Assembly: GCA_010093605.1 (NCBI GenBank)
Contig: MU004196.1
Coordinates: 270,606 to 334,605 of the forward strand
Direction of reading: 5' to 3'
Length of the DNA: 64,000 nucleotides
DNA from: Lophium mytilinum
Lineage: Eukaryota
Shown: one piece after another, positions 5,000 to 59,510 of the stretch
Layout: every line of letters starts with the position of its first letter
How positions within the stretch are numbered: the first letter of the stretch is position 1
Program-made: the position numbers and the translations under genes
Notes under the pieces: generated by a model
Told to the model about the DNA's origin: nothing
Database searches by the model: none
What the model saw: the letters and a program-made list of their open reading frames with translations, nothing else

Positions 5000-7100
5000 A
5001 TTCCTACCTGTTACATCCAGCATATTATAGTATAGGATGAGACGTCGTGACACCGACTAATTCGAGGACGGACAGGAAGAAGGCGAGACCTCTCGTTGAA
5101 GACTTAGCAATTCTTGTTTTCAAGTCCGACAACCTCTCTGACTAATGATAATTAACGTCGATGGCCGTAGGAGCTAGCAAATACAGTGCTGAACTCTCTG
5201 AGAAAGGATGAGTGCTGGAAACTATTCATGCTATCTGAGCAGAGAACCTGTTGCCAGTCAACACGAGTCTTTGTCTTATCCACGTTAGCTTGCTTATAAA
5301 CAGTCTTCCTTTGGCATCGTATGCTATTTCGTAACCAATATGCCTTCTTTTTCCTTCCTTGTTGTCAACCTCTTTCTTTGAGAGGACAACTCTCCTCTGT
5401 CTCTTTGATGTCCATTGAACGAGTAAGACATCTCATGAGCAACTGGAATTCGTCATAACATCCAGTCTTTCGTCTTCCTTTCCATTATGCTTTTTTTCTT
5501 GCTCCCGATCATTTCCTGCTGTCAACTTTCAATTCTATGGCATCGATGCCGTCTGTGATCTTGGCTTTCAGCGTTCGTTTGATTCCAAGATACCGAAGCT
5601 CAGTCCGGAGGCCAGAACCCTATCGCGTTAGCCTAGGACCAATGATCCAGTACCAAGGAAGCCCGGACCAAAGACCAGGATTTAGTACCAGGATTCAGGA
5701 CCAGGAGTCAGGACCAGTGTTCAGGACCAATGTCCAGGAACCAGCAGCCAAGACATAAGTCTACCATGGCATTCATGTGGATGCCAATGCCGCTTCTTTC
5801 ATCAACTTCAAATCCTATTGTGCCTGCAGCTTCATCACGCCTCCAACGGCTCGAGCATTCAACAGTGTGGCCGCAATCATGTCCATTGGCTCGTACAACG
5901 TAGCGATCGTCAAGGCGTCTCGGCTGGCTATCGAGTAATGTGGAGGGGAGGATGGTCGCTTGGTGCCGCGTGCGACTGTCCTGTACGATGCCTGCCAATC
6001 GACTCCAGGCTAGTCAGTATGGCTAATCGAACGAAGTAACCAAAGAGATGAGGGATGTTAGCAAACGCTCTTCGTCTTCCACCTCAACTTCACCTTTGCT
6101 GCCCTTGACTAGGTGCTTTTTGCTGAGGCTGTCTTGCGTCTGCTCTCAGAGCACCTGGTTCGACGACTCGATTGAGGGGCCGACTCTGCTGCCATCGAAG
6201 CAGACCGAGTATCCCGAATCTCTCTTGGGCACCTCCTTGATGCAAATATGTTGGGCTCGTGTGTGAGTCTGCTGGGGGTGGCCGTATATCGTTGCTGCAC
6301 GACTCCATGGACTCATACTCTAGGCCTCTTCCATCTGTTTAATGACGCTCTCCTGTGCCATGAGATGGCTCGATGGTGTGCGGCTGATCAGTATCGACGT
6401 CCGGGGCTGCCAGCCTAGCCATCACATTCGACCGCTCGTTCGGACTGCCGTCGCTGCTCGGAAGCCGGAATCAATTCCTCGCCATCCAGTATTGCTGTCG
6501 TGCTGGAGCTAGCCTGCTGCTCAGTGGCTCATATTTTGAGGTCGACGGTGTGGAGATGGCGGATGGCAGCTTGAGCAGCAATGAAGCCGTTGAACAAATA
6601 TCACGCCTGCCTCGAGGTGTGGTGCCCGCTTTCGGCCGGGTGGTCGGCGACTCTCCGTGGACACCAAAACCTAGTTATGACTGCTGCTCTAGACTCGTCG
6701 TCCGTGCTCTGGAGCTCGCCGCTTTGCTGTGGAGGGTTGATGGTGATGGGGCTGGTGACCGAAGCGGTGGCCGCGGCAGTCTATCAACAACTTCAAGGAG
6801 ACGGACGCCCGCGACGCATCTCCACTCATTGTGGTGGACGCCTTGAGCATTGCACTGCTAAAAGCATAGTGCATCGATGAAGCTACGGATCTGGCAATCC
6901 CTACAGTAGATCGACTTCAAGCCACTGGGCAGTGTCTCAAGATATGATGTTGGGGTCTCCCTGGAAAATGCTGTGAACGAAGGAGTCCAGCTCAGGGTGC
7001 CACCCCTTCAACACTGCTATTCACATCACGGCAAGAAGACCTCTTCATGTCCTGTTGAGAGTATTCTCTGTGGAGTCTACATATCGGCAGCTATGGCGAG
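5000..7100 (-). pseudogene. Possible decayed protein-coding remnant, family unrecognised
   Basis: One minus frame from about 6780 to 5765 reads as protein-like, interrupted only by TGA/TAG stops. It is followed by an intron-like segment (GTAGAC at about 5764 ... GCTAAC...TAG at about 5621). Confidence 0.25.
5633..5755. repeat. Degenerate ~13-bp minisatellite (CAGGACCARTGTY-like), about 9 copies
   Basis: Visible units include caggaccaggagt, caggaccagtgtt and caggaccaatgtc. Confidence 0.75.
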
Positions 7101-7176
7101 TAAACTAAGGGGAATGCGTGGGCCCTCATGGTGTTGCAAAGCTCGCGAATCGCCAAAAAGAAGCCCTCCACCCCCA

Positions 7177-7187
7177 GGACTCGAACT
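7177..7187 (-). promoter_or_regulatory. Isolated Pol III B-box-like motif (AGTTCGAGTCC)
   Basis: The minus strand reads GGGAGTTCGAGTCC, followed about 15 nt later by TTCTTTTT. I could not build a tRNA cloverleaf around it. Confidence 0.3.
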
Positions 7188-9349
7188 CCCAACCCTCGCC
7201 TACGGCCAAAATGCAAAAAAAAAATGTTGAAGCAACTCTTTGATAGAGCGTGTCATCCTTAGTGCAGGGGCCATGCTGATCTTCTCTGTGTTGTTTCAAA
7301 TTGACCAAATGCCCGAAGGCGGGAGATGGTCGGAAATATACGAAATATATACCTAAGCTGCGGAAAAGTAAACAAGCACGGGCCAGCTCCATGCGGGATT
7401 TTACACCTTAGGAGCGCCTCTCGAGCACCTCAGCACGCCCGAATGGATACGTTTATTGCTTGTCACGATGCACGGAGGATATGAAGAGTCTCACGGCTGT
7501 CATAACGCTTATGATCGCGATTTGAAGCTACTCTACGCGTTTTCTGGCAACTCACTCTGCTGGAAGCCAGCCACTGGACGATTTTCACCCAGTGGGATTC
7601 CAGACTAGCGGGTTTTACTGCGCCAGCTGTCAATTCGGTCACTACACTCCTACCACTGAAATCACCGCAGTGGATGATTTGGAAAAGTGAATGTAGATGT
7701 CCCACACGGTCCCCGAGTGCGAGCACGGGCTTCGAATTGACATGGCAACTGAAGCCCATCTCTGATGCACTTCCATCAGAACGAGCATATTAAGCTTCAC
7801 TTCGTGCGACTCGAAGAAGTGCAAAGGCGTTGAAACCTGCAAACCTAGCATACCCAAAGCTCTCGCCATTGCCTGAAATTCTGGAGACGCAAGTAACGCT
7901 CAGAAGATCAATAATAATGTTGACGCCAAAACTGAATATGGAAAATGCGGTTATCCTTCTCAAAACCCACCGAATCCTGGTGGTGGGACATACAGATCTC
8001 AGGGGTACTGCTGAAAGCTCCGCTTAAGCTCAATTGGGGATTCGATCATGCCCACCGTCATTCCCTCACTGCAATTTCGTGAAATGATGGAATGGAGGTG
8101 ATAAAATAACGTCGCTCACCTCCTGACATCGGAGATCATGATGCTTCGAGCCGCTTCCCGAATGACATAGATCCCACTTCTCGACCTACCTGCAACTTCA
8201 TAGCAAACAGAGCGAATAATGTGAACGAGAGAGGGCTATGACACCCAAAGTCTCAGTTCGCAAAATCTGAAATATCGAGCAGAACCTAGAAATCTTGCAA
8301 AGGTGCTGGAAGATACGGCCCAAAACCCTACCGCCTCAGGACAAAATTTGAGGAGCTCCTATTGCCGTAACACGTCCTCGGAGGAAAGCGTGGCGGTGTC
8401 GAGCGTTGCGAAGATAGCGGAGGAGTGGACTCCCTTACCTCGCCTTCAATCTAGAGGTGACAGTCAGCAGTGCTGCCGCTTACAATATCGCCTGAGAGAC
8501 TTGATATATGGTGTTCGTGGCACTAGGAAAGCTCCAGTATTATCAGAATTCTGCAAACATGCTGAAATATCGGCCCATGGTTTCACTCGGGGCGTATGGG
8601 TTGGGATGGAAAAGACGAGCTAACGTCTTGAACTCAGTTACAAGAGCGAAGTGAAAGACAATTTACCTGGAGGAACCCACTGTTTCTGCCGTGGAGGGCA
8701 ATTCGGGTGTTACGATTTCCTAAGCCTGGACGTGAAAGCACGATAGCGGTCATTGAGACCTGAATGCTGATGACCGGCCTAAGCATTCTTGTAGCATCGA
8801 AATCAATGTAAAAGCTCGGGGACTACTTCCAAAAGACGATACAGTTGAACTCCAACCTGGGATTTCAGGGATACTCAAAAATCCCTGACAGTGCTGAGCT
8901 CTTGTCATAACATCCTTCATCTCGAACTCTACACAACTGCCCATAGGCTTTCTAACTGCAACGAAAAGTTCGACATCTAAGGGCAGATCTGATAGCAAAT
9001 TCGTTTGAGGTGTACCTCAGAACTTACAAATTCTTTGGGGTCTCTAAGCATTGCTGAGGACCCGGCAGAATCATGGTCATTATAATACCCGATTTACTCC
9101 AAACCGGCGCCTTGAACGACGACAAGCAAGACCGTACGACCATCACTCCCAAAGCTTCGGCATGTCGCAAAATCTAAAGTCTTGATCTACGATTTGCAAC
9201 CTTTGACGTCTCATATCGCAAAAGTCTCCCACTGTCTTGAAGCCACCTAGAGACATATCTCTGCTTCCAAATTGATAAGCATGTTCCTATAAATCTTACC
9301 TTTGGAGCCGCGCCTCAAAGCAAAATCCGAAGGCTCGGTTCAGCACGTC

Positions 9350-12300
9350 CGAACTTTGACATTGTCTTCCCAGATTATCTCCACGTCCAGGAGTCCTTCA
9401 AGATCATATCGCTGGCCCCCTATCAAACGCATGGGATCATGGATCTTGATTGCCATGGATTACCCACAAGGAGATGCCATGTCAAACTCACAGTTCAATC
9501 CAGCGTGTGTAGGCTCCGACATCGCACATCGAAAATTACCCACCGTCCCGAGGATCTTTGGAATGATATCATTGCTTTCAAGCCGAACGCATAGAAAGTC
9601 TTGATTTGGAGTGGTTGGAAGTATGCTTGAATGGACCCACGAAAATATCCAAGGCCAGTGTCAGAGACCTATGGATGTGACATTCAACCGCGACATTTTT
9701 GACTAGCTGGTGGCCTTCGGACGATATCATACCCTCGGAAAAAAAATTTAATATCAAACTCCGACTTGAAGAGAGAAGCAAATATCTAGGCAGCTAGAGA
9801 TCGAAATTCCTATAGTCCCAATCAAAGATGAGGGAATCTGACTTTCACCCTAGAGTTCCTAATTAGAAGGGCGACTCCCGACGCCGTTGAAAGGCAACAA
9901 TGCTATGGGGTTCAAGCTTAGAATCAAACAGAGAAGCGATTTCCACCTAATCCAGCAGCTGTATCAAGCCACAGAATCCGGACTCTTGGATTCAAGAGCA
10001 GCGAAAGTGGCATTCGGCAAGGAGAACTTTGCCCAGCTAGAGCGCCTCCAACGTTGTCAAGCAATGAAAAATGCGAAGCAATCTTGATGCAAGATCGAAG
10101 GGAAGAACCAATATCATCCGAATCATGGACCAAGTGGAGGAGCGGATTCCGAGCGCCAGAGTCGAAAGAGACCGAACATGACATTCGACGGGAAATTTTC
10201 CACCAGCTAGAGGACTTCCAACGCTGGCAAAGACCTTTCAAAGGTACAGATGCAGAGTTGCAGCTCTACATGAGAAGCATCTGCATTGAATATCTCGTCC
10301 AACTCCAGTCCTCGAAAACCAGTTTTAGATCTGCAGCCTGCAGAAATGATGTCCGACCGAAAGAATTTCGACTTTCCGAAGGAACTCGGACGTCGCCAAG
10401 CAAGATTCAAAGAAGCAGGTCCATGACGTTGGAATATACACAACTTGCCGTCTCCTCTGCTTTTCGAGGTGTTTGACCTAAGTATGAGCTAGCAAGGTCA
10501 GGCTGCAAGTGTAGGAAACATGGCATCTTAGAGGAACATTCGCGAGAAGCTGGGAGACGAGCAAGGAAACTGCAGAGCCATGGCGTTGCTCGTTTGCCAT
10601 GAATATCTCAGAAGACAAGTAGGAGGGCGTTGCAGAGCCACAAGCTCAGTCCCTAAGGGTCCCGGAAGAAGAGTTCTTGGTTCTTTTCAAGAAGTTCGCC
10701 ACATGTAATGAAGATAGCGTTTGACCGACAAAATCTCGGCTAGCTAGAGGACTCCTGACGCCGCTAAACATCTAGCAAAGGAACGAGCGTGAAGCTTAGA
10801 TTTGAAGATGAAGCAAATCTTCGGGTTACCGGGTCACCAAGACCAGATTTTGATAACAGCGGACGCCAAATCCGCCTGCACAGAATTTGCACTGCCAGCG
10901 GACCTCAGACGGCGCCCATCGTCAGCCAAAACGCGATAACGTCGGGAGGTCAGATTTAAAGGACAAGAAACATTCCATTCAACCACGGAGATCTCGACTC
11001 GTTAGAGGCTTCAGACGGCGTTACCTGCGCAGCAAAACCTACGAACGTAAGGCTCTGTTTCAGGGTAGAAGCAAACCATGTATTCAAGATTCCAGGACCC
11101 GATATCGAGACTGGAGGACGAAAGCTTCGACCAGCCGGGCTTCGAGTAGCTGGAGGACGTGCGACGCCGTTCACGTCCGGCCAAAAGACCATGAAACTTC
11201 GAAGTGCTATTCGAAGGGCGTGGAATGGAACATTCGATCGAAAATATCTCAACCAGCTAAGGGGGTTCCGACGAGGCTAGCTATATTCCAAACCTACGGA
11301 CTTAGAGCTCGATTTTGAAGCTAGAGTAGACGCCATACCTTGCGGACTCCCGGGGCTAGATTCGCAGAGCCGGGATTGCAGCATTTAAATACAAAAAGCT
11401 CAAACAGCTAGGGGGCTTCAAACGCCGTCGAAGAGCGATCAAAACGCCTCGAAACCGCCAGGTCAGATATGAAGAATCGGGAGTACAGCATTCAACTGCG
11501 TAAATTTGGCCCAGCTGGGGGACCTCAAACGATGTTAAGAGGCGATCAAAATGGCGCGAAACTGCTAGGTCAGATTTGAAGGGCTGGAAACGTAACCTTC
11601 GATCAAGAGAATGTCGACTAGTTGGCGGACCTCTAACACCGGTGACCAGTGATCAAAATGCCGTGGAAAAGGGATATCAGACTTCAAGAGTTGAAAACGT
11701 GACATTCGACCGCGAGGATGTTGACCAGTCAACGGGCTTCAAACGCCGACAAGGAGCAGTCAAAACGGCGGGACTCTGCTGGGACAGAACCAAAGAGTAG
11801 GAAACTTGACATTCAACGGCGAGAATATCGACTGGCTGGCGGACCTCGAACGCCGGTAAGGAGCTATCAAAACGGCGGGAATCTACTGGGACTGATTTGA
11901 AGAGTATGCAACGGAACGTTCGACTGTGAGGAAGTTGACTAGCTGGCGGACCTCGAGCGCCGTGGAGACTCGATCAAGACCACCAGGAAAAGAGAGGTCA
12001 GACTTGAAGAGAAGAGATCATGACATCCGCGCGGCGGTTTTTGACGTTGCCAGGGCACTCCAAACATCGCTCAAGACCGATCATAACGCCCCGGAAAAGC
12101 GAAGTCAAATCTAAAGAGGAAAATTATAACATCCTTCCGGCGATTTGTGAGGCTGTCAGGGCACCTCAAACGCCGTGCAAGACCGATCAAAACGCCTTAG
12201 AAAAGCGATGTCGAATCTGAAGAGAAGAAACTGTAACATCCTTCCGGCGATTTGTACGGCTGCCAGGGTATTCCAAACGTCGTTCACGACCGAACAAAAC

Positions 12301-13190
12301 GGCGCCAGAATGCACACTGAGATTTGAAGAGGAGGAACCAAGACATCCTTGCTGCAATTTCTCATGTTGCTGGAGAGCCCCAAACGTCGGCAACACGCGA
12401 TTCAAAGCGAGAGAAATGGCACGGTGAGAGTTGAAGAGGAGAATTCCTTACGTTGATCCGGAATTTCTTTAGGCTGCCAGGGTACCTCAAACGTCGGCTA
12501 AATGCAATCAGATCGGTGCTGAGACGGGCTGTAAGAGTTGAAGAGGAGAACTCCTTACATCACTCTGCAATTTTCTCAGGCTGCCGGAGGACCTCAAATG
12601 TCGGCGAAAGGCAATCAAAACGTTGCGGAAATGGGTTGCGAGAGTTGAAGAGTCACGAACGGGACATCCGTTCTGATTTTTCTCAGGCTGCTAGAGGCCT
12701 CCAAACGTTGAGGAAGCGCGATCAAAACGGTCTGCAAAGAGGAAGTGAAAGTTGAAGAGTTGGAAACGTGACATCCGGTCCAGTTTCTCTTAGGCTGCTG
12801 GAGGACTCCAAACGTCGATGAAACGCGGTCAAGATGATGCAGAACTGGGGTGTGGGAGATGAAGAGTCACGAACGTAACATTCGTCTTGATCTTTCTCGG
12901 GCTGCCAGAGGACTCCAAACGTTGATGAGGGGCGGTCAAGATGGTACGGAAATGGGCTGTGAGAGTTGGAGAGTTGGAAACGTGACATCGGCCTTCATTA
13001 ATCACAGGCTACCAGAGGACTCCAAGCGTTGATGAAAGGTGGTTAAAATGATGTGGAAATGGGTAGTCAAAGATGAAGAGTCGGGAACATGACATCGGCC
13101 TTGCTTTTTCTCAGGCTGCTGAAGAACCTCAAACGCTGTCAAGATCAAAGCAGAATCACGGAAGGCAAGCTCAAGTTTGAAGAGGAGAAC
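9350..13190 (+). repeat. Non-coding tandem array A: about 30 diverged monomers, 107-bp core period
   Basis: The anchor GGAC(C/T)(T/C)CAAAC recurs at 11419, 11526, 11633, 11740, 11847, 11954, 12061, 12167, 12274, 12381, 12488, 12595, 12702, 12809, 12916, 13023 and 13130. Companion motifs are GATCAAAA, TTGAAGAG and TGACATYC. Longer units continue leftward to about 9350. Confidence 0.92.
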
Positions 13191-13671
13191 AGATTGGATT
13201 CAAACTACCAAAGAAAGCAACAAAAGCAACCACCAATCCCGAACCCAACCCATCCCCTTTCTGACCCCCAAAGCTTCTAAAACCTGCACGCTGTGGTCAG
13301 TATTCACATCGCAAGAAGTCACCATCATGTCACAACATCACCATCAAGTCACTCAAGCAAGGCAAGACATGAGAGAGAGCGAGAACGAGGGTCTGTCGCG
13401 ACAAGTTAGCCCAAGAACAACCATGAGAGAACAGAGGCAACGTACCAATTCGGAGGCCACAGCGGGCCTTCTCCCGGCGCCCCCTGCTGGCGCAACCCAG
13501 CAGACACGAACAAAAGAAACATCACCAAAAACCCCGAAGGGCGGACGTGCTGTGGCCATTGTCAGCACAAGAAGCAACGAAAAAGGGGAGGATAAGAACT
13601 TACCGCGGTGCCGAGAGGGCCCGGCAACTTGTCGTCAACAAAAAAAAACGAGGACCGGAAGAGGCATGCCC

Positions 13672-14154
13672 TTAGGCAGAGGCCGATTGCTTGCCACCAG
13701 CAGCGCCGGCGGACGGAGCGGACGGGGGAGCTGGGGGCGGCGAACCCGGGGGAGTCGGGGGTGCGCGGCCGGGGGCTGGGGACGGGCCGGGGGACCGGCG
13801 CCGCTGCTCTTCTGCCACGGAGGGGGAGACCTCCGACGCTGTGGACAGTTAGTGATGTTGAAAGAAGGGACTGAAAAGGGGTAGACCACGTGACAAGAAG
13901 AGGAAAAAGGTCAAAGAAGAAGATTTTGAAGGGGTAGGACAGGAACAAACGAAGGTTGATTGGGTCAAGAAGGGATGAGAGGGGTGAGCAAGAGGAGGGA
14001 ATGGTGAAGAGAAGGACCAGGAAGGACGCGATGAGTGACAGAAAAGGAAGAGGAGGCTTACCAGGCCAGTCATGCTCCTTCTTGCGAGCTATGTCGACAG
14101 TCAGTTAAGAACAGTGGAAGAAGAGGAGGAAGAAGACTTACGAGGACGCGCCAT
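13672..14154 (-). CDS. Putative spliced 68-aa Pro/Ser-rich microprotein (3 exons)
   Basis: GCCACCATGG start. Exons 14154-14142, 14088-14062 and 13838-13672. Introns GTAAGT..CTGAC..TAG (53 nt) and GTAAGC..CTAAC..CAG (223 nt). Product MARPPRKKEHDWPASEVSPSVAEEQRRRSPGPSPAPGRAPPTPPGSPPPAPPSAPSAGAAGGKQSASA*. Confidence 0.55.
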
Positions 14155-25304: not shown

Positions 25305-25440
25305 TTCGCGTTTTGCTTTCGCGTTTTGCTTTCGCGTTTTGCTTTCGCGTTTTGCTAATGCCTGATGGCGCGAAGGTCTAGAAACTGAGACGGCGTTGAG
25401 GCGTTAAGGCGTTATGGCGTTACGGCGTTCGGGCGTTCGG
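25305..25440. repeat. Minisatellites: (TTCGCGTTTTGCT)x4 and (GGCGTTNN)x6
   Basis: A perfect 13-mer occurs four times at 25305-25356. An 8-bp-period GGCGTT runs from about 25392 to 25440, in the 3' flank of the AAA gene. Confidence 0.9.
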
Positions 25441-30159: not shown

Positions 30160-31715
30160 ATGGAGGTAGAGGACTCCTAACGGTGACAAACCCATGGAAA
30201 AAGCGTATGGAAAGGGCTCATCTCATTTGAAGCGGCTGGAGTATGATATTCAGGTAGCGACTTTCATATTGTACTTAGACGTCCTTCACCATGTTATATA
30301 TGTGCGCAGCCTTAAGGCTTATGGGCTCTGATATGACATCTCCTTGCCCGTGTACCCCTTCATAGTCATGAAGATGGACGCAGAGGCCTCCCAACGGCGG
30401 CGAGAAGATGGAAAATGGAGGTAGAAAGCGTAGATTCAATCTAGAGCGAGCGGAAATAACATCCGTGGGCCGATCATCATGTAACACGTAGACGTCCTTC
30501 ACGAGATCCAATGCATGCGCAGCTTTACGGTCTAGAGAGCTCGATACAAGCTGTTCTATTCTCGCACGACCTCCTGCTTAGGAGGGCGTCTGCGGAGGAC
30601 TTCTGGCATGCGCAAGTGGGACGTGAAAAACACCCATTTGATTTGGAATTTACAGTACATGACATTCATTGCGTAAAAACCCTGAAACCTCTAGACGACC
30701 TCCGCATATTTTTGGATAGGCGCAGCTTCATCGTCGCAAGGGCTAAAGTCAAACGTTGCTATTCTTACATTGCTTCTCGACCACAGCTATACATTAAAAG
30801 GGCTCCTGACACTGGCAAGCATATAGAAAAAGGCTATAGAAAGCACGCATCTAATTCCAGGGCTCTAAACTATAACATCTACATATTTGCCATTTTGAAA
30901 GGTTTAGATGGCCTTCGCGTAATTTTCCAGATCTACACTTTCACGATAAAGAGCGTCTACTTTGAAGTGCATTTATTGTTGTATTCGTTACGCTCTAGAA
31001 GCCATCTCTAGAGGACTCCTAACACTAGCAAGTAGCTAGAAAAACGGCGTAGAAAGCACGCGCCCAGTTCAAGTCGTCTAGAACATGACATCCAAATTGG
31101 CTCTATCTTGAAATGTCCAGGCAGACTTCATGTACTTTTCCAAATGAGCAGTTTCACAACAAAGGGCGTGTAGTCTAAAGTGTCTTTGTTACTGCATTAC
31201 CTCAGGTCCGGAAGACGTCACCGGAGGACTCCTAGCATTGGCAGGTGTATGAAAAAGGGTCGCAGAAAGTACATGTCCAATTCCAGGTATCTGGAACATG
31301 ACATCGACGTAGTCGCCAGTTTGAACTGTTCAGAAGGCCTATACGAGATTTCACGTGCGCGAAAAATCGCCATTGCGAAGGCCTAATTCTGCGCATCCGG
31401 GATATAACATCCATGGGACTATTATTCTGATACCTTTGGGAGGACTTTACAAGATTGCACATATGCGCAATATCGCAGTTACGAGGGTTCAATCTAACGC
31501 CTTCAATATATGACATCCATAGGGTCTCTATCTTAGTACCTCCAGAAGGATTTCACGAGATTGCACTTACGTGCAAAATCACGATGATGGGGACCCAATT
31601 TGACGCATCCAAAAAATGACATCAGCAGAGTGAAAATCACGAAACATCTTGACTGGCATCACGCAATTTTCCACATGCGCAATGTCACAATCAAGTGAGT
31701 TCAATTTGAAGCAGA
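30160..31715 (+). repeat. Non-coding tandem array B: 213-bp dimers followed by 106-bp monomers, same family as array A
   Basis: The T(G/A)ACATC-like anchor occurs at 30244, 30457, 30660, 30873, 31086, 31299, 31405, 31511 and 31617. GAGGACTCCTAAC-like motifs occur at about 30169, 30383, 30798, 31011 and 31224. Confidence 0.88.
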
Positions 31716-31853
31716 GAGTTGGATTGATCAGAAGAGAACCCGAATTCCGAACCATTTTGTATGACCGTTGCCAGCGCGTCAACCCTTGAGGAGCCCCTCA
31801 GGGCATCCAAGCAGTATGCAGAACCACTATCTACAGGCCTAGAACCCCACCCA

Positions 31854-54024: not shown

Positions 54025-57000
54025 ATGGCTGAGCCCTATAACCGCAAAAGCGCTTCGGTGGCCAAGAACGATGCTGCACAAGGCGGGCTCCCACCTCGGC
54101 ATGATACAACTTTACCTAGGCTTCCCGGGCTTCCCAATGACTACGCCCAAAACGAAGCGTCGCCGTCAAGGTATCCTGATCTTGTTCAAGACGAGCCACG
54201 TCCTTTTATGGAGAATCAGTATCTAGTCCCTGAACCTAGACGCAGTAGACCAGATGAAGACTACTCGCAGGTGAGCTTCGCTCCTTTCAGTTCATATTGT
54301 AGGCGGAGGAGGCACTGGTTAAGGAACTGAAGTGTTTCCTTGTCTGGGTCCTGAAGTAGGCAAAGCAGTGGTTATGGTTATCACCTTTAGTCTCACCTTG
54401 TAGGCTATTCGAATGTCTTAGTAACTGATATTTTGGCCAGAGTAACATAGGATACGGATCGCAGCTGAAAGGCTCCAGCAATCTAGGTATGCCAAGCAAT
54501 TTCAACGCACATCAACTTGGCTCGTCATTATACGCAAGCAAGTTATTCGATTCCGGCCCAGGACATGAAATAGAGCCAGAACTGGAATATTCAGGAAGTT
54601 CCCGGTCTAGGAAAAGGCAACGGACCAAGAGCCCAGAAGCTCACTACACTTCTAATTTTCTCCATCCTTCTGCGAAAAACCCTGGGCAAAGCGGAACTTT
54701 TCCCTCCCGGCTAGGACCACGAGAGACGGGTCCAAAACTTAACCCTACAGCAGCCTTTTCAACCCCTTTAGTCCGTCCAAATAAACAAAATCATGGAACA
54801 CACACTGCAGCCATCCAAGACCAACTTGGAACAGCCCTTGGGATGAAGGAGCTGAAATTACATGCCTCCCTTATGCCAGCGTCTACTGCAACTATCGTCG
54901 GCAATGTTTGCAAGTATGCACACCCAGACGGCTCAATCCCATCCGAAGAGAAGATCATCGCGCTGTCAACCTTGACAGATGTGCCATCGCAAGTCATCTC
55001 TGCCTGGGCTAGAGTGTATCAAGGAAGCAGAACTGTAGCCAAAGCTGATTCAGGTCGCACTCGTAATAAAGGCTTACCCCAAAGCGGTTCGAAACAAAGG
55101 AACGACGCCCTTGGGCCTTCCGTCCCTTCAGATTCTCCAACTGCTCTAGAGCCTGATTATTTCCAAACATACCAACCCTTGTCTCATCCGTCTCCCTATA
55201 TGCCATCTTCACGACCGCAATCTGCCACTTTAGATCCAAAACAAGAGCCCTTTCGGAAGGGAGACTTCCCGTGCCCTGGAATTTCAGGTATCACCACCGA
55301 CGACTCTCTTGGCTCTGTCGATGCGTTTGCAAACTGGAATTTCTCACAGCCCAACGCAACAACGCAGCACTCGCCCGTATTCCCCGAGGTGCCATGCCAG
55401 AGTCTTAACGGCAGTCATCTGATCCCTGCCATAAGAAACATCGAGCCGAACGGCCAGGTACTAGATGCTCAATGGCTAGCTGCGCCTGAAGATCTCTTCG
55501 CGGCTTCAAGTATATATGACGCTGGCACGCCTCAGGCGCCCCTTCCCCAGCAAAATCAACATCGCCAAAACATTAGTGTCCATACCAACTTCCCAATTTA
55601 CAACAACAACGAGACCCCCAACACGCCAAATAATGCCAGTATTCTCAGTCCAGTCAGCATGGGCGGAGAGCGATCGCCCGTTTCTGAGTGTTCTGAGGAA
55701 GATTCAGCCGCCATCAACGAGGAACAGTACGCCACCAGCGACGAGGAAGACTCCCTCCCCATCAAGTGTATCTGTGGCTTCTTTGACGACGATGGCTCTA
55801 CTGTTCCGTGCAAAACATGCAACAAGTGGCAGCACCTAACCTGCTACTATGACACTAGTGACGTGCCTGACAACCACGAGTGCGTGGACTGCTCACCCAG
55901 ACAGGTTGACTCGGAAAGGGCAGCCGTGCGACAACGCCAGCTTCGAAATCTGCCCAAATCCGAAGAAAGCACACCTTTGCCAGCCAATAGGCATTCAGAT
56001 CCCAGCCAAAGACAATCGATCGCTCTAGTCTCAGAACGAACGATTAACGTCCCCGGTGTTGTCGTTCCTTCTGATTCTGGGTATCAAAGTGGTTTAGGGA
56101 CAGACACAGCGTCTGTCTGTTCGGAGGAATCTGTCGGAAGCTCCCTCGGCCTTTCTCAGGACTTTCTCCAAGACTTTGTTGCTTTCTTTGGAGATGTACT
56201 CATCGAGAGGGCAGGCGCACGGAACTGGGCGGAGCATGCCCTTGCGCAACATCCATCGGAGGTTATCGAAAAGAGACTCAATTCGCTGCTGAAAGACTAT
56301 GCCATGGAACTGCTAGAGACGAAAGATACTGTTGTGAAAGATTACTTAAAAAACAGAACCCCCGCTCGAGCCTTAGGAACAGACGTACGCATTGCGACTG
56401 GTGCAACAAAATTGATTCGCAGGTACCGCCCAAAAATAACACGTTACTTTCGAGACAATATCACTACGGCCGCAATTTCAGCAGATTCGATGTCCTCGCG
56501 TCTACAGGAAATAGGCAAGCAACTCACTCTCAGAGAGAGGTTGGCGTTGTTCGAAAGACAATCAGCAACGAAGACAGATCCGAGCGAAGGCCTCGAAGAC
56601 AACGACGATGACGCTGATGATAGAGAGTATGAAGCTGACTTGGCGCCCATCCAAGACTTTCTAGTCTCCGGAGAACCATTTCAAAATCTGCTGACAGCAG
56701 TACGCCGAAGTCTATATTACAATGATCTTTCCGGAATGGAGCAAGCCAGACAACAAGTTTATGCGGCGTTAGCAATCCAATGCACAGGCGCGTGTATCCG
56801 CCCGGAGCTACCTCTTAATGAATACCCCGGTACACGCCAAGAGTGTCACTGTAACTGCACTGAGGCTCGGCTGGACCTAGTCGTTGATTGGAGTTTACCG
56901 GAATTTCTAAATTCACAATTCAGCCGACGAATACCTCGATTAGGATCTTTGATCACACTCACTGGCTCAGCTCTATACGCACAAGCAGCCACATGTTCAG

Positions 57001-59510
57001 AGTACCTCCAATCGACATGGCCTAGTAGTGGGGGGCTATTCCTCGACTCTCTTCAGGATGCGCTGGATAAACGATTTAGCGCTGACTCTGCGGAATGTAT
57101 CCATCTTGATCGTAAGTTCAGACCAGATCTTTAGTCCCTTTGCGTTTCGTATAAACCACAGCGCAATTGTGCCTTATCCAAATTCCAGTTTCTCTTACAT
57201 GGCCCAAATGTTGGGGTTTTCAAATATCCATACTTCTCTTCATGGCTACTGTTGTTCGTCTACTTGCCATCAAGCTCATCCACTAACGGTGTTGGTCTAG
57301 ATACCTCCTCGAAACTACGCATCAAATTTACTCTGCCTCCGGTGTCCTCCAAAAAAGACGGTACTAGCAGAATGGAGATCTGTGCAAACGGAATTCCGCA
57401 ACATCTCACTGAACTCACTCAGCAAATATTGTGGATTGGATCTGCATTGAACTTTTCGGCTTCAAGTGAGCAGATAGCCTACTCGGAGGCCGTAATTGGC
57501 CAGGGCCCATCTTGCTTGAATATCTCCTTCCGTAATACGGCCTTACATCCCACCGAAAATCCATGCTGGCTTCCACTCTTCTCTGGTGCAACTATTGCAC
57601 GAAATTTCCCCATTCCCGAGCGTCAAGACCAGACAGGACTGGAGATACCAATAGACATCATGGCAGGGATTGCTGGAGTTCGACACGCTGTAGAGTATGC
57701 CGGCGGTGTCGTCATGAAAGGGTTCTCGTCCATGTTTGTGCCCATTGAAAGGCTCGGAAACCTCGTGCAATGGCATCTAATCTCCAGTTCGGACTGCGAC
57801 ACTCGGCTGAGCTATAAAGACGTTCTCGAAAGATGTAAGAACCGAGCTACTCTCAAAGATGTGAGCCTAGACTCTCTTCGCACTACTCGCGCTATTGTTG
57901 GTTGGTGCAATACGGCGAGCACAACCCTGGGGTCTGCCTTGGCCAACTATGAGAACCTCGACTACTCTGGAGCAAAAGATGCTGAGAGCTCACTAAAGTG
58001 TGCTGGTGGTACGCTTGGATTCCAGCAATTTGGAGTTGCTCAAGCCGATTTCAGTTTTGGGCCCAAGGACGGGAAATGCCACTTCCAGAGGAACGGGCCT
58101 TATGAGAGTATTGTCAAGATCGCGGAGAAGACCCCGGTCACTCTCTATGACACAGCAGAAAATCGAGCCTGGCTGGTGCCCGCTTCAAGTGTCATTCTCC
58201 ACATTGCTCAGCACCGAAACTGGTTGGAACCTTTTCAAGTTGACGGCCAGCGTGTCAATCTCTTCTCTTCCTTAGCGAAGTGCTCATCAATCAGAGACAT
58301 TCTACTCCGGAATGCCTCAATCGAGTTGTCAGATTACGAGAGATACACATTCAAAGACATGGTCACTAACATATGGTCACTTCTCGAGTTTCTCTTAGAC
58401 CAAAATGTGAGAATTGATCGGACGGCAGGCGGAGCCATCGAAAAGCCATGCCAAGATATACTTAAGGGTTTCGAATTCAAGGCCGTTGTCGAAGAACTAT
58501 CACCGTTTCGCCAGAAACAGGCCAAAATTAAGAAGACTTGCGGCGGTTGGCCAACTCTTGTTCGCGACATTGATGCTCTGGTTCTCTTCGCGAACGGTTT
58601 CGAGGATCTCATTCTACCTCTAGAAGACGAAAGCGCCGATCTTTGCAGGCTTTGGCAAAGAGTACCAAAAGGGCAAGACTATTTGGCCACTAGCGTCAAG
58701 ACCCTTACTGACCTATACAATGTCGCTGGATGTAGAACTAGCCGTGCTTACCTTACTTCTACTGAATTGCAGTGGCACCGGGGTACCTCAACTCTTTTCG
58801 AGCCTTGTAAGAATCCGGGAGCCTACAGATGCGAGTGTGTCCGACTGCAGCGGATCCTGCCTAAATCTGCGACTGGTACCATCATACCCCCAGGCTCCCT
58901 AACAGAAGCCAAAGATGGTGCCGTTATCTTCGGGCACTCTAGTACTGTGTTACAAACGCTCAAGCCTACTTTTAAAGTCCCGTCGACCAAAGGGCTATTC
59001 ACTCAACCAAACATTCCTCTCACTCCGGTCATCGTGGGCCAGGATTCGGACGAAGGTCTCACGGACGGCGAAACAGTAGGGCAAACGGACTCAGATGGCA
59101 CTGGCATAACACCATCGTCAAGTATAACATCATACACCAACGAGGATGAATCTAGCAACCAGGACGTGAGTATGACCGGCCTGGAGCTTGAACCTAGGGG
59201 TTCGCGAAAACGACGGTGGCCTCCCGATGAGTCTGGCGATAGCCTAATGGCACCCCAGCGAAAGTGCCAGTTTCTTGAACCGAACAAGAGGACGAAAAAC
59301 ACGACGCCCAGCCGCGAGATGAATCCTGGTTGCCGTGTATTCGGCGGGAGTCAAAAGTCTCCTGAGCCTTCGACACTGGGTCCTGGCAATGAGACATATT
59401 CTTGTCAGTTCGGGGACCCAACCTGCCTGAAGTCTCCACCCCAACTTCGCGTTCTGAAAAAGCAAACGGCTCAGACCTTTGATCGGCGGTATACTCAAAG
59501 GGAGCCGTGA
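54025..59510 (+). CDS. ~1708-aa multidomain protein: homeodomain-like remnant, Set3-type PHD finger and an uncharacterised fungal C-terminal domain
   Basis: Exons 54025-54270, 54441-57111 and 57301-59510 join in frame (GTGAGC..CAG; GTAAGT..CTAAC..TAG). C4HC3 PHD at 55767-55892. The C-terminal region CWLPLF..IARNFPIPER..GLEIP..GVVMKGFSSMFVP..QWHL is typical of a fungal hypothetical-protein family. Confidence 0.8.

What the first reader, a model, noticed from the sequence alone, without database searches (positions are those of the whole stretch)
11405..13190. Strict 107-bp array whose length is conserved while its sequence drifts
Seen: 17 consecutive anchors are spaced 107 bp apart (one step is 106), although distant monomers share little beyond GGACYYCAAACG, GATCAAAA, TTGAAGAG and TGACATYC. 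107 is not a multiple of 3 and all frames contain stops, so the array is non-coding. Within one monomer, AA steps recur about every 10-11 bp (12810, 12821, 12831, 12843, 12862, 12872). Neighbouring copies resemble each other most, and the right end forms a 214-bp dimer (GAAGAGTCACGAACG at about 12647 and 12861; AGAGTTGGAAACGTGACATC at about 12756 and 12970). Established: ~10-bp phased AA/TT bends DNA and positions nucleosomes, and satellites form higher-order repeats. Inference: heavy substitution with almost no indels implies constraint on spacing (10 helical turns). That would suit a structural chromatin element such as a CenH3-type or other short-wrap nucleosome array, an origin, a boundary or a phased protein-binding platform. 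I do not recognise it as a described fungal repeat.
Basis: partly seen in the sequence, partly recalled or inferred. Interest (0 to 1): 0.88.

Follow-up and report, generated by a model that had tools for sequence, protein, structure and literature searches.

The report
Helically phased fungal DNA box arrays
This 107-base repeat is one of dozens of non-coding arrays in a fungal genome that repeat the same short DNA box at near whole turns of the double helix, mostly just past gene ends, which points to an unidentified DNA-binding protein acting there, though its binding and function are untested.

Summary
The array is real: 17 units, 15 steps of 107 bp and one of 106, about 490 substitutions against 1 indel, non-coding, no RIP signature. 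It is not a lone satellite. Its best-kept part, a 19-bp box, occurs 181 times genome-wide (control 4). It forms at least 29 direct arrays on 15 contigs, with unit lengths of 66-235 bp close to 10.6 x n + 2 bp (class-level p about 0.01; 0.07-0.12 in stricter tests). The same box sits as back-to-back pairs (52 or 62 bp apart) inside a MITE with 5-bp target duplications, where indels are rare within pairs and common between them. Arrays favour convergent intergenic regions (14 of 21; background about 20%; MITE pairs 3 of 28). Best reading (0.5): a phased platform for a sequence-specific DNA-binding protein at gene 3' ends, probably a barrier. Main rival (0.25): amplified transposon subterminal sites. 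A centromeric role is unlikely; the 214-bp dimer is only local. No protein, transposase or related genome was found, and ten paper searches found no description. The scan had already noted the MITE, a 151-bp boxed family and helical-turn spacing elsewhere in this genome.

The parts
11405..13204 (+). Core array: 16 full 107-bp units plus a partial 17th. Each unit has a 19-bp box (YRGAGGACYYCARACGNYG type), CAAA about 30-35 bp after the box start, a mid-unit TTTGAA, and TGACATC 25-26 bp before the GAGGAC core of the next box
12051..12157 (+). The single 106-bp step (1-bp deletion in unit 7)
12581..13115 (+). Most homogeneous block (units 12-16), with a local alternating 214-bp signature
9700..11404 (+). 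Decayed left arm: boxes at 10038, 10208, 10377, 10745 and 10896 (steps 170, 169, 368, 151) and a profile match at 11147-11253
30163..31750 (+). Second, related array (213/214-bp period, then 106-bp period) between the 3' ends of two predicted convergent genes
13672..14154 (-). Context: inferred small spliced gene (68 codons, two introns with canonical splice sites), transcribed towards the array and ending about 470 bp from it
   Evidence: sequence inspection; expression not shown
7221..7320 (-). Context: U6 snRNA gene in the same 12-kb gene-poor interval
   Evidence: Rfam RF00026, 82 bits

Best explanation
The array is a multimerised binding platform on double-stranded DNA. Each unit holds one composite site of about 65-70 bp (TGACATC, 25-26 bp, a 19-bp box, CAAA) for a sequence-specific protein that has not been identified. 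Units grew by local duplication and unequal exchange. Selection keeps successive sites on one face of the helix: changes of 1 bp or of whole turns are tolerated and half-turn changes are mostly removed, while spacer letters drift. Such arrays sit mainly just past gene 3' ends, in convergent intergenic regions, so the most likely job is a chromatin or transcription barrier that limits read-through or organises chromatin there. Shown: the box family, the spacing steps, the indel deficit and the location bias. Inferred: protein binding, host-level selection and the barrier function.
For: Box: 181 matches vs 4 in the reversed control; 18 of 568 sites fall in predicted exons, which cover 41% of the 89 regions read. 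Spacing: 112 locus-level events give R=0.57 at 10.7 bp, reached by 0 of 2000 jitter nulls; without the 107, 161 and 214 classes n=70, R=0.42, again 0 of 2000. Eleven hand-picked classes fit 10.58+-0.06 bp per turn plus 2.3+-0.9 bp. Of the odd steps inside 107-type arrays, 15 of 18 distinct lengths lie within 0.2 turn. Indels: 1 against about 491 substitutions in 16 units, where even a 3% ratio predicts 15. In 13 MITE copies chosen by their ends, box pairs show 4 indels per 168 substitution states against 40 per 219 elsewhere (p=3e-6), and three copies lost a clean 10 bp. AA/TT power at the predicted harmonic in 10 of 15 arrays, with G/C steps in antiphase. No RNA fold and no covariation between pair arms, p=0.8. 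Location: the exon ahead of the boxes shows its 3' end in 23 of 26 callable arrays vs 45% background; 14 of 21 arrays are convergent vs about 20% background and 3 of 28 MITE pairs.
Against: At the most conservative level the phasing is moderate: p=0.010 within a prior 10.3-10.9 band, 0.074 with a free period, and 0.12 for all 31 classes unweighted. Arrays share ancestry, so loci are not independent, and the period used was fitted on overlapping data. Polarity is weak: ahead vs behind Fisher p=0.086, with 5 vs 0 discordant cases. Gene calls come from a home-made codon model that missed the small gene beside this array. The MITE linker used as the neutral reference holds simple repeats and may overstate the indel rate. 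The box is built into a transposon family, so the constraint could date from transposition. Regions were chosen around box hits and no random regions were read. No binding, expression or cross-species data exist. Yeast roadblock sites showed no preferred orientation (PMC5052057, passages).
Confidence: 0.5

Rival explanations
1. The box is the subterminal binding site of the transposase of a CAC-ended DNA transposon group. The arrays are satellites amplified from such elements. Phasing was selected while the elements were mobile, and the arrays are now relics.
For: The same box lies as fixed back-to-back pairs inside a MITE: 236 end matches vs 0 control, perfect 5-bp duplications in 13 of 20 copies. 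Multi-unit blocks align in register between contigs at 64-67% identity, so arrays were copied between loci. Short scattered arrays inside mobile elements are described in oysters (PMC8268682, passages).
Against: No CAC-ended inverted repeat with a 5-bp duplication encloses arrays beyond chance (7 vs 7 control). Array flanks are mostly unrelated. Arrays favour convergent regions and MITE pairs do not (p=7e-5). Array units are more diverged (48-65% mean identity) than MITE copies (75%) and lack their RIP-like signature. None of 2 hAT and 14 Tc1-type loci had box pairs or these ends as its own termini.
Confidence: 0.25
2. An old neutral minisatellite family. Length is kept mechanically, because in-register exchange purges indels and we only recognise intact runs. 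It survives at 3' ends because promoters do not tolerate it.
For: Similarity falls with distance, and the left arm is decayed and irregular. The unweighted class test is not significant (p=0.12).
Against: It does not explain steps of whole helical turns, the fixed spacing in single non-tandem box pairs, or the high conservation of one box across otherwise poorly alignable unit classes.
Confidence: 0.1
3. A nucleosome-positioning or CenH3-type array read by DNA shape alone.
For: AA/TT and G/C steps are in antiphase. The 52-bp pair is a roughly 120-bp dyad-symmetric module with a 10.6-10.7-bp period. CenH3 binds divergent monomers sharing a 19-bp box in nematodes (PMC8097292, abstract).
Against: There are up to 5 arrays per contig in gene-rich DNA. 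Units are as short as 66 bp. The signal is concentrated in a base-specific site. A 325-genome atlas saw no satellite centromere architecture in fungi (bioRxiv 10.64898/2026.09.17.752431, passages).
Confidence: 0.08
4. Replication origins, or cohesin or condensin anchor sites, marked by the box.
For: Intergenic, convergent location. That yeast origins and cohesin favour convergent regions is recalled knowledge and comes from no call.
Against: The 181 strict matches in 43 Mb seem few for origins (inference). Nothing here tests initiation or looping.
Confidence: 0.07

Closest known systems
Divergent tandem monomers sharing a conserved 19-bp box in Meloidogyne holocentromeres (PMC8097292; abstract read)
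   Same: Short tandem arrays of divergent monomers that keep one box of about 19 bp, spread over chromosomes.
   Different: There the DNA is shown to carry CenH3 in a holocentric nematode. Here the host is a filamentous fungus, unit lengths step by helical turns, arrays favour gene 3' ends, and no protein is known.
Short satellite arrays inside Helitrons/Helentrons and MITE-derived satellites (PMC8268682; passages)
   Same: Scattered short arrays linked to a mobile element family.
   Different: No shared element ends flank these arrays. The MITE carries inverted box pairs, not the 107-bp unit.
Yeast general regulatory factor roadblocks: Reb1, Rap1, Abf1 (PMC5052057; passages)
   Same: Works like: DNA-bound sites past transcript ends that could stop Pol II read-through.
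   Different: Yeast sites are short and showed no preferred orientation in that paper. Here the sites are long, composite, multimerised and phased, and binding is not shown.
Transib/RAG-type elements (PMC1131882; passages), for the box-carrying MITE only
   Same: CAC ends and 5-bp target duplications; spacing rules near one or two helical turns (12/23).
   Different: No Transib/RAG1 transposase was found (uninformative blank). A fungal survey lists Transib as absent (PMC5751038, passages), while PMC1131882 reports it in soybean rust only. The end repeat lacks the 23-bp spacer layout.

Membership tests
Satellite DNA with higher-order repeats | Head-to-tail non-coding monomers | tested here: met
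Satellite DNA with higher-order repeats | Multi-unit period more alike than adjacent monomers, sustained along the array | tested here: not met
   Lag 214 (0.571) is below lag 107 (0.628); alternation only in units 12-15
Satellite DNA with higher-order repeats | Long, high-copy homogeneous arrays | tested here: not met
   3-24 boxes per array in the 29 arrays seen
Regional CenH3 centromere | One locus per chromosome | tested here: not met
   29 arrays on 15 contigs, up to 5 per contig
Regional CenH3 centromere | CenH3 occupancy | not testable with these tools
   needs ChIP
Nucleosome-positioning repeat | AA/TT and G/C steps in antiphase at the helical period | tested here: met
   10 of 15 arrays for AA/TT and 9 of 15 for G/C steps at p<0.05; weak outside the composite site, 3 of 45
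Nucleosome-positioning repeat | Unit long enough for a core particle (147 bp, textbook value) | tested here: not met
   Classes of 66, 98, 107, 129 and 141 bp; a 214-bp pair of units could still hold one
Internal or subterminal repeat of a DNA transposon | Array enclosed by terminal inverted repeats and a target duplication | tested here: not met
   7 candidates vs 7 control in 89 regions, CAC-type ends with 5-bp duplication only; no long inverted pair around this array
Internal or subterminal repeat of a DNA transposon | Motif shared with a bona fide element | tested here: met
   Box pairs in the MITE
Internal or subterminal repeat of a DNA transposon | Match in Dfam or Repbase | not testable with these tools
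   libraries not held
Transib (the box-carrying MITE) | CAC termini and 5-bp target duplication | tested here: met
   13 of 20 perfect, 87 of 100 letters; other lengths 21-35%
Transib (the box-carrying MITE) | RAG1-like transposase in the genome | tested here: inconclusive
   Blank, and the control rang nowhere
Transib (the box-carrying MITE) | 38-bp end repeat: heptamer, 23-bp spacer, A-rich nonamer | tested here: not met
   The A-run starts about 13 bases from the end (one search compared)
Protein roadblock or insulator sites | Located downstream of transcript 3' ends | tested here: met
   (predicted genes only)
Protein roadblock or insulator sites | Bound protein and Pol II stalling | not testable with these tools
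   needs footprinting and NET-seq
Structured non-coding RNA | Conserved fold or Rfam match | tested here: not met
   0 pairs on the + strand alignment; no Rfam match over the array; no arm covariation
RIP-decayed repeat | High TpA/ApT ratio and loss of G+C | tested here: not met
   Product index 0.44, GC 0.50, transitions/transversions 307/222

The most novel reading that the evidence does not exclude
A filamentous fungus has a sequence-encoded boundary system. An unknown protein polymerises on helically phased boxes at convergent gene ends, and the same site, used as a dimeric pair, has been captured by (or domesticated from) a 5-bp-duplication DNA transposon that spreads it.
Probability: 0.25. 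Interest if true: 0.9.

Novelty: new variant of a known kind. Interest (0 to 1): 0.7.

Why it matters
To my recall, filamentous fungi have few sequence-defined insulators, terminator barriers or origins. A 19-bp box with a spacing rule and a location bias gives a direct handle: pull down the protein, shift spacing by half or whole turns, delete an array and measure read-through. It would also tie a transposon motif to a host chromosome element. If the rival is right, it still describes an unclassified fungal transposon group whose sites obey a helical rule.

Tried and rejected
Literature: ten searches found no description of this repeat, box or MITE end. One search searched six motif strings and returned two papers on unrelated organisms (listing only). 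The library lacks most subscription papers, and no supplements were read. Other collections: no exact box pair in viral contigs, prokaryote genomes or metagenomes. The composite pattern gave 5 metagenome hits; 0 of 5 match the unit model and none shows a box array, so I treat them as chance. No fungal genome collection is held, so conservation in relatives is untested. Sequencing runs: 3 listed, no RNA holder on record; no reads or contigs were laid, so strain variation and expression stay open. Transposase: KDZ and RAG1 searches were blank and uninformative. hAT (2 loci) and Tc1-type DDE_3 (14 loci) showed no box pair or matching end as their own termini; one locus had a MITE beside it. An OrsD-domain ORF beside one pair looks like an ordinary gene. 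'Repeated proteins' near arrays were translations of shared non-coding DNA. tRNA genes: 0 in 30 array loci. The TKACATC count had an unsuitable control and was dropped. The atlas search gave no useful taxonomy. The first indel comparison was biased by picking pairs on their spacing and was replaced by copies chosen by their ends. The whole genome could not be scanned with a profile. Counts rest on 89 regions (772,243 bases) around listed pattern hits; 81 of the 181 hits were not listed, and 15 further hit regions and 5 random control regions were not obtained. The 29 arrays are therefore a lower bound.

Full report
1. Observation. The window is G000:C16:270606-334605 of a 43.4-Mb, 49-contig genome. 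Spliced genes, a Zn2Cys6 domain and a U6 gene indicate a filamentous fungus. The label Dothideomycetes comes from earlier AI notes and was not tested. Over 11405-13190 identity at lag 107 is 0.628, at lag 214 it is 0.571, and at unrelated lags about 0.30. Seventeen boxes are spaced 107 bp fifteen times and 106 bp once. Distant units keep about 53% identity. The dimer signature is confined to units 12-15. Decayed units run left to about 9700, and a related 213/106-bp array lies at 30163-31750.

2. Length constraint. A tree of the 16 full units has length 4.59 substitutions per site, about 491 events (minimum 186), against 1 indel. At assumed indel ratios of 3%, 5% and 10% the expectation is 15, 25 and 49. 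RIP does not explain this: product index 0.44, GC 0.50, transitions/transversions 307/222. Two caveats apply. The array is defined by its intact run, and in-register exchange could purge indels. Blocks on C14, C19 and C23 align to this array at 64-67% over 500-1050 bp. Their gaps are mostly small compensating ones (many likely alignment noise), plus one 10-bp and one 11-bp gap.

3. A genome-wide box. The best-kept part of the unit matches 181 times at up to 1 mismatch against 4 for the reversed pattern (97 vs 6). I read 89 regions (772,243 bases) around listed hits. A weight matrix found 568 sites (534 vs 15 in reversed DNA one iteration earlier), of which 18 lie in predicted exons covering 41% of the DNA. 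They form 29 direct arrays on 15 contigs. Most unit classes, including 66, 98, 107, 141, 161, 226 and 235 bp, keep TGACATC or TTACATC 25-26 bp before the box core and CAAA after it. A subset of the 129-, 151- and 161-bp units has another upstream motif. Length changes fall in the middle of the unit.

4. Helical steps. All 251 direct spacings of 40-300 bp give R=0.72 at 10.7 bp. The 112 locus-by-class events give R=0.57, and dropping the 107, 161 and 214 classes leaves n=70, R=0.42; none of 2000 jitter nulls reached these values. Loci share ancestry, so I also tested classes. Eleven classes repeated within a locus give p=0.010 in a prior 10.3-10.9 band and p=0.074 with a free period. Eighteen classes seen at least twice give p=0.010. 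All 31 classes unweighted give p=0.12. A regression on eleven hand-picked classes gives 10.58+-0.06 bp per turn plus 2.3+-0.9 bp, which is B-DNA pitch plus a small offset per site. Of the 18 distinct odd steps next to 107-type steps, 15 lie within 0.2 turn; the exceptions include 125 and 136 (fitted period, neighbouring lengths not independent). AA/TT power at the predicted harmonic reaches p<0.05 in 10 of 15 arrays, with G/C steps about 5 bp out of phase. Outside the composite site only 3 of 45 unit sets reach p<0.05 (combined p=0.024; non-107 classes 0.11). The periodicity is therefore mostly a property of the site, not of the whole unit.

5. The same box in a transposon. Of 83 back-to-back pairs up to 100 bp apart, 46 are 52 bp, 10 are 51, 15 are 61-63 and 5 are 84-85. 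Many lie in a MITE whose end pattern matches 236 times vs 0. I picked 20 copies with two listed ends. Thirteen have perfect 5-bp duplications (87 of 100 letters; 21-35% at other lengths). In the 13 long copies the first pair spans 90 bp in 12. The second spans 99-101 bp in 10 and 90 bp in 3, while linkers range over 85-191 and 44-78 bp. Indels per substitution state are 4/168 in pairs and 40/219 elsewhere (p=3e-6; the linker holds simple repeats). The arrays are not enclosed by such ends (7 vs 7 control), and their flanks are mostly unrelated. No transposase could be tied to the box.

6. Location. With a home-made codon model, the nearest exon ahead of the boxes presents its 3' end in 23 of 26 callable arrays (29 in all; 21 of 26 and 21 of 23 at other thresholds) against 45-49% background. 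Behind the boxes the figure is 15 of 23 (Fisher p=0.086). Fourteen of 21 arrays with both sides called are convergent, against 19-21% background and 3 of 28 MITE pairs; the discordant cases are 5 vs 0 in favour of the 3' end ahead. The model placed 11 of 11 checked window ORFs on the expected strand (partly training data) but missed the 68-codon spliced gene that ends about 470 bp from this array. The convergent preference is solid under this caller, and the polarity is only suggestive.

7. Mechanism. Most likely (0.5) the array is a host-maintained, phased platform for one sequence-specific protein at gene 3' ends, acting as a barrier. The box, phasing, indel deficit and location are shown; binding, selection by the host and function are inferred. 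The rivals are amplified transposon subterminal sites (0.25), a neutral minisatellite (0.1), a nucleosome or CenH3 array (0.08), and origin or cohesin sites (0.07).

8. Comparison with what is known. The closest architecture is the 19-bp-box monomers of Meloidogyne (PMC8097292, abstract) and the element-linked short arrays of oysters (PMC8268682, passages). The closest function, if the barrier reading is right, is yeast roadblock sites (PMC5052057, passages), which showed no preferred orientation. Model yeasts lack high-copy centromeric tandem arrays (PMC4053949, passages), and an atlas saw no satellite centromere architecture in fungi (bioRxiv 10.64898/2026.09.17.752431, passages). The MITE meets two Transib hallmarks and fails the end layout (PMC1131882, passages; PMC5751038, passages). 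Ten searches found no description of this family; supplements were not read. Earlier notes of this scan describe the MITE, a 151-bp boxed family and helical-turn spacing in the same genome. I could not see their sequences, so identity with this box is likely but unchecked. No look-alike was indexed from other genomes.

9. Verdict. The feature is real, constrained and more extensive than reported. It is a new variant of boxed tandem arrays, with an unusual helical rule and location bias, and has no functional data. Interest 0.7.

Noticed in passing
window 13672-14154 (-): Apparent 68-codon, Pro-rich gene with two canonical introns, missed by ORF-length filters.
   Followed up: partly
window 7221-7320 (-): U6 snRNA gene. 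L084:6783-7088 resembles window 7129-7407 in translation and may be a second copy near another array.
   Followed up: no
L148-L167 (for example G000:C19:1283530-1284000): MITE family with CAC ends and 5-bp duplications, in forms of about 230 bp (one box pair) and about 400 bp (two pairs); transposase unknown.
   Followed up: yes
L063:1700-1830, L095, L100, L102, L139: A second dispersed element with a box pair 84-85 bp apart; in at least three copies the spacer holds the TGACATC composite, a possible bridge between pairs and direct arrays.
   Followed up: partly
L080, L098, L113, L119, L122: A second end-like motif 23-100 bp outside box pairs that shares a core with the MITE end; possibly a sister family.
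   Followed up: no
L122:2790-3560 and 5470-6600: Nine 66-bp steps (the shortest class) and, 2 kb away, a tandem array of inverted pairs with a 204-211-bp period.
   Followed up: partly
L069 (G000:C23:175000-184900): Largest array seen: 24 boxes mixing 107/108-, 161- and 226-bp units in one run.
   Followed up: partly
window 54429-59510 (+): Two adjacent long ORFs (901 and 791 codons) with no Pfam match, separated by one stop codon.
   Followed up: no
L171:722-2017, L182:736-2016, L175:506-1985: Tc1-type elements with long, near-perfect inverted ends, different from the MITE ends.
   Followed up: no
window 25305-25437 and 5673-5744: Short tandem repeats (13-bp x4 perfect, 8-bp x6, 13-bp x4) next to genes.
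   Followed up: no
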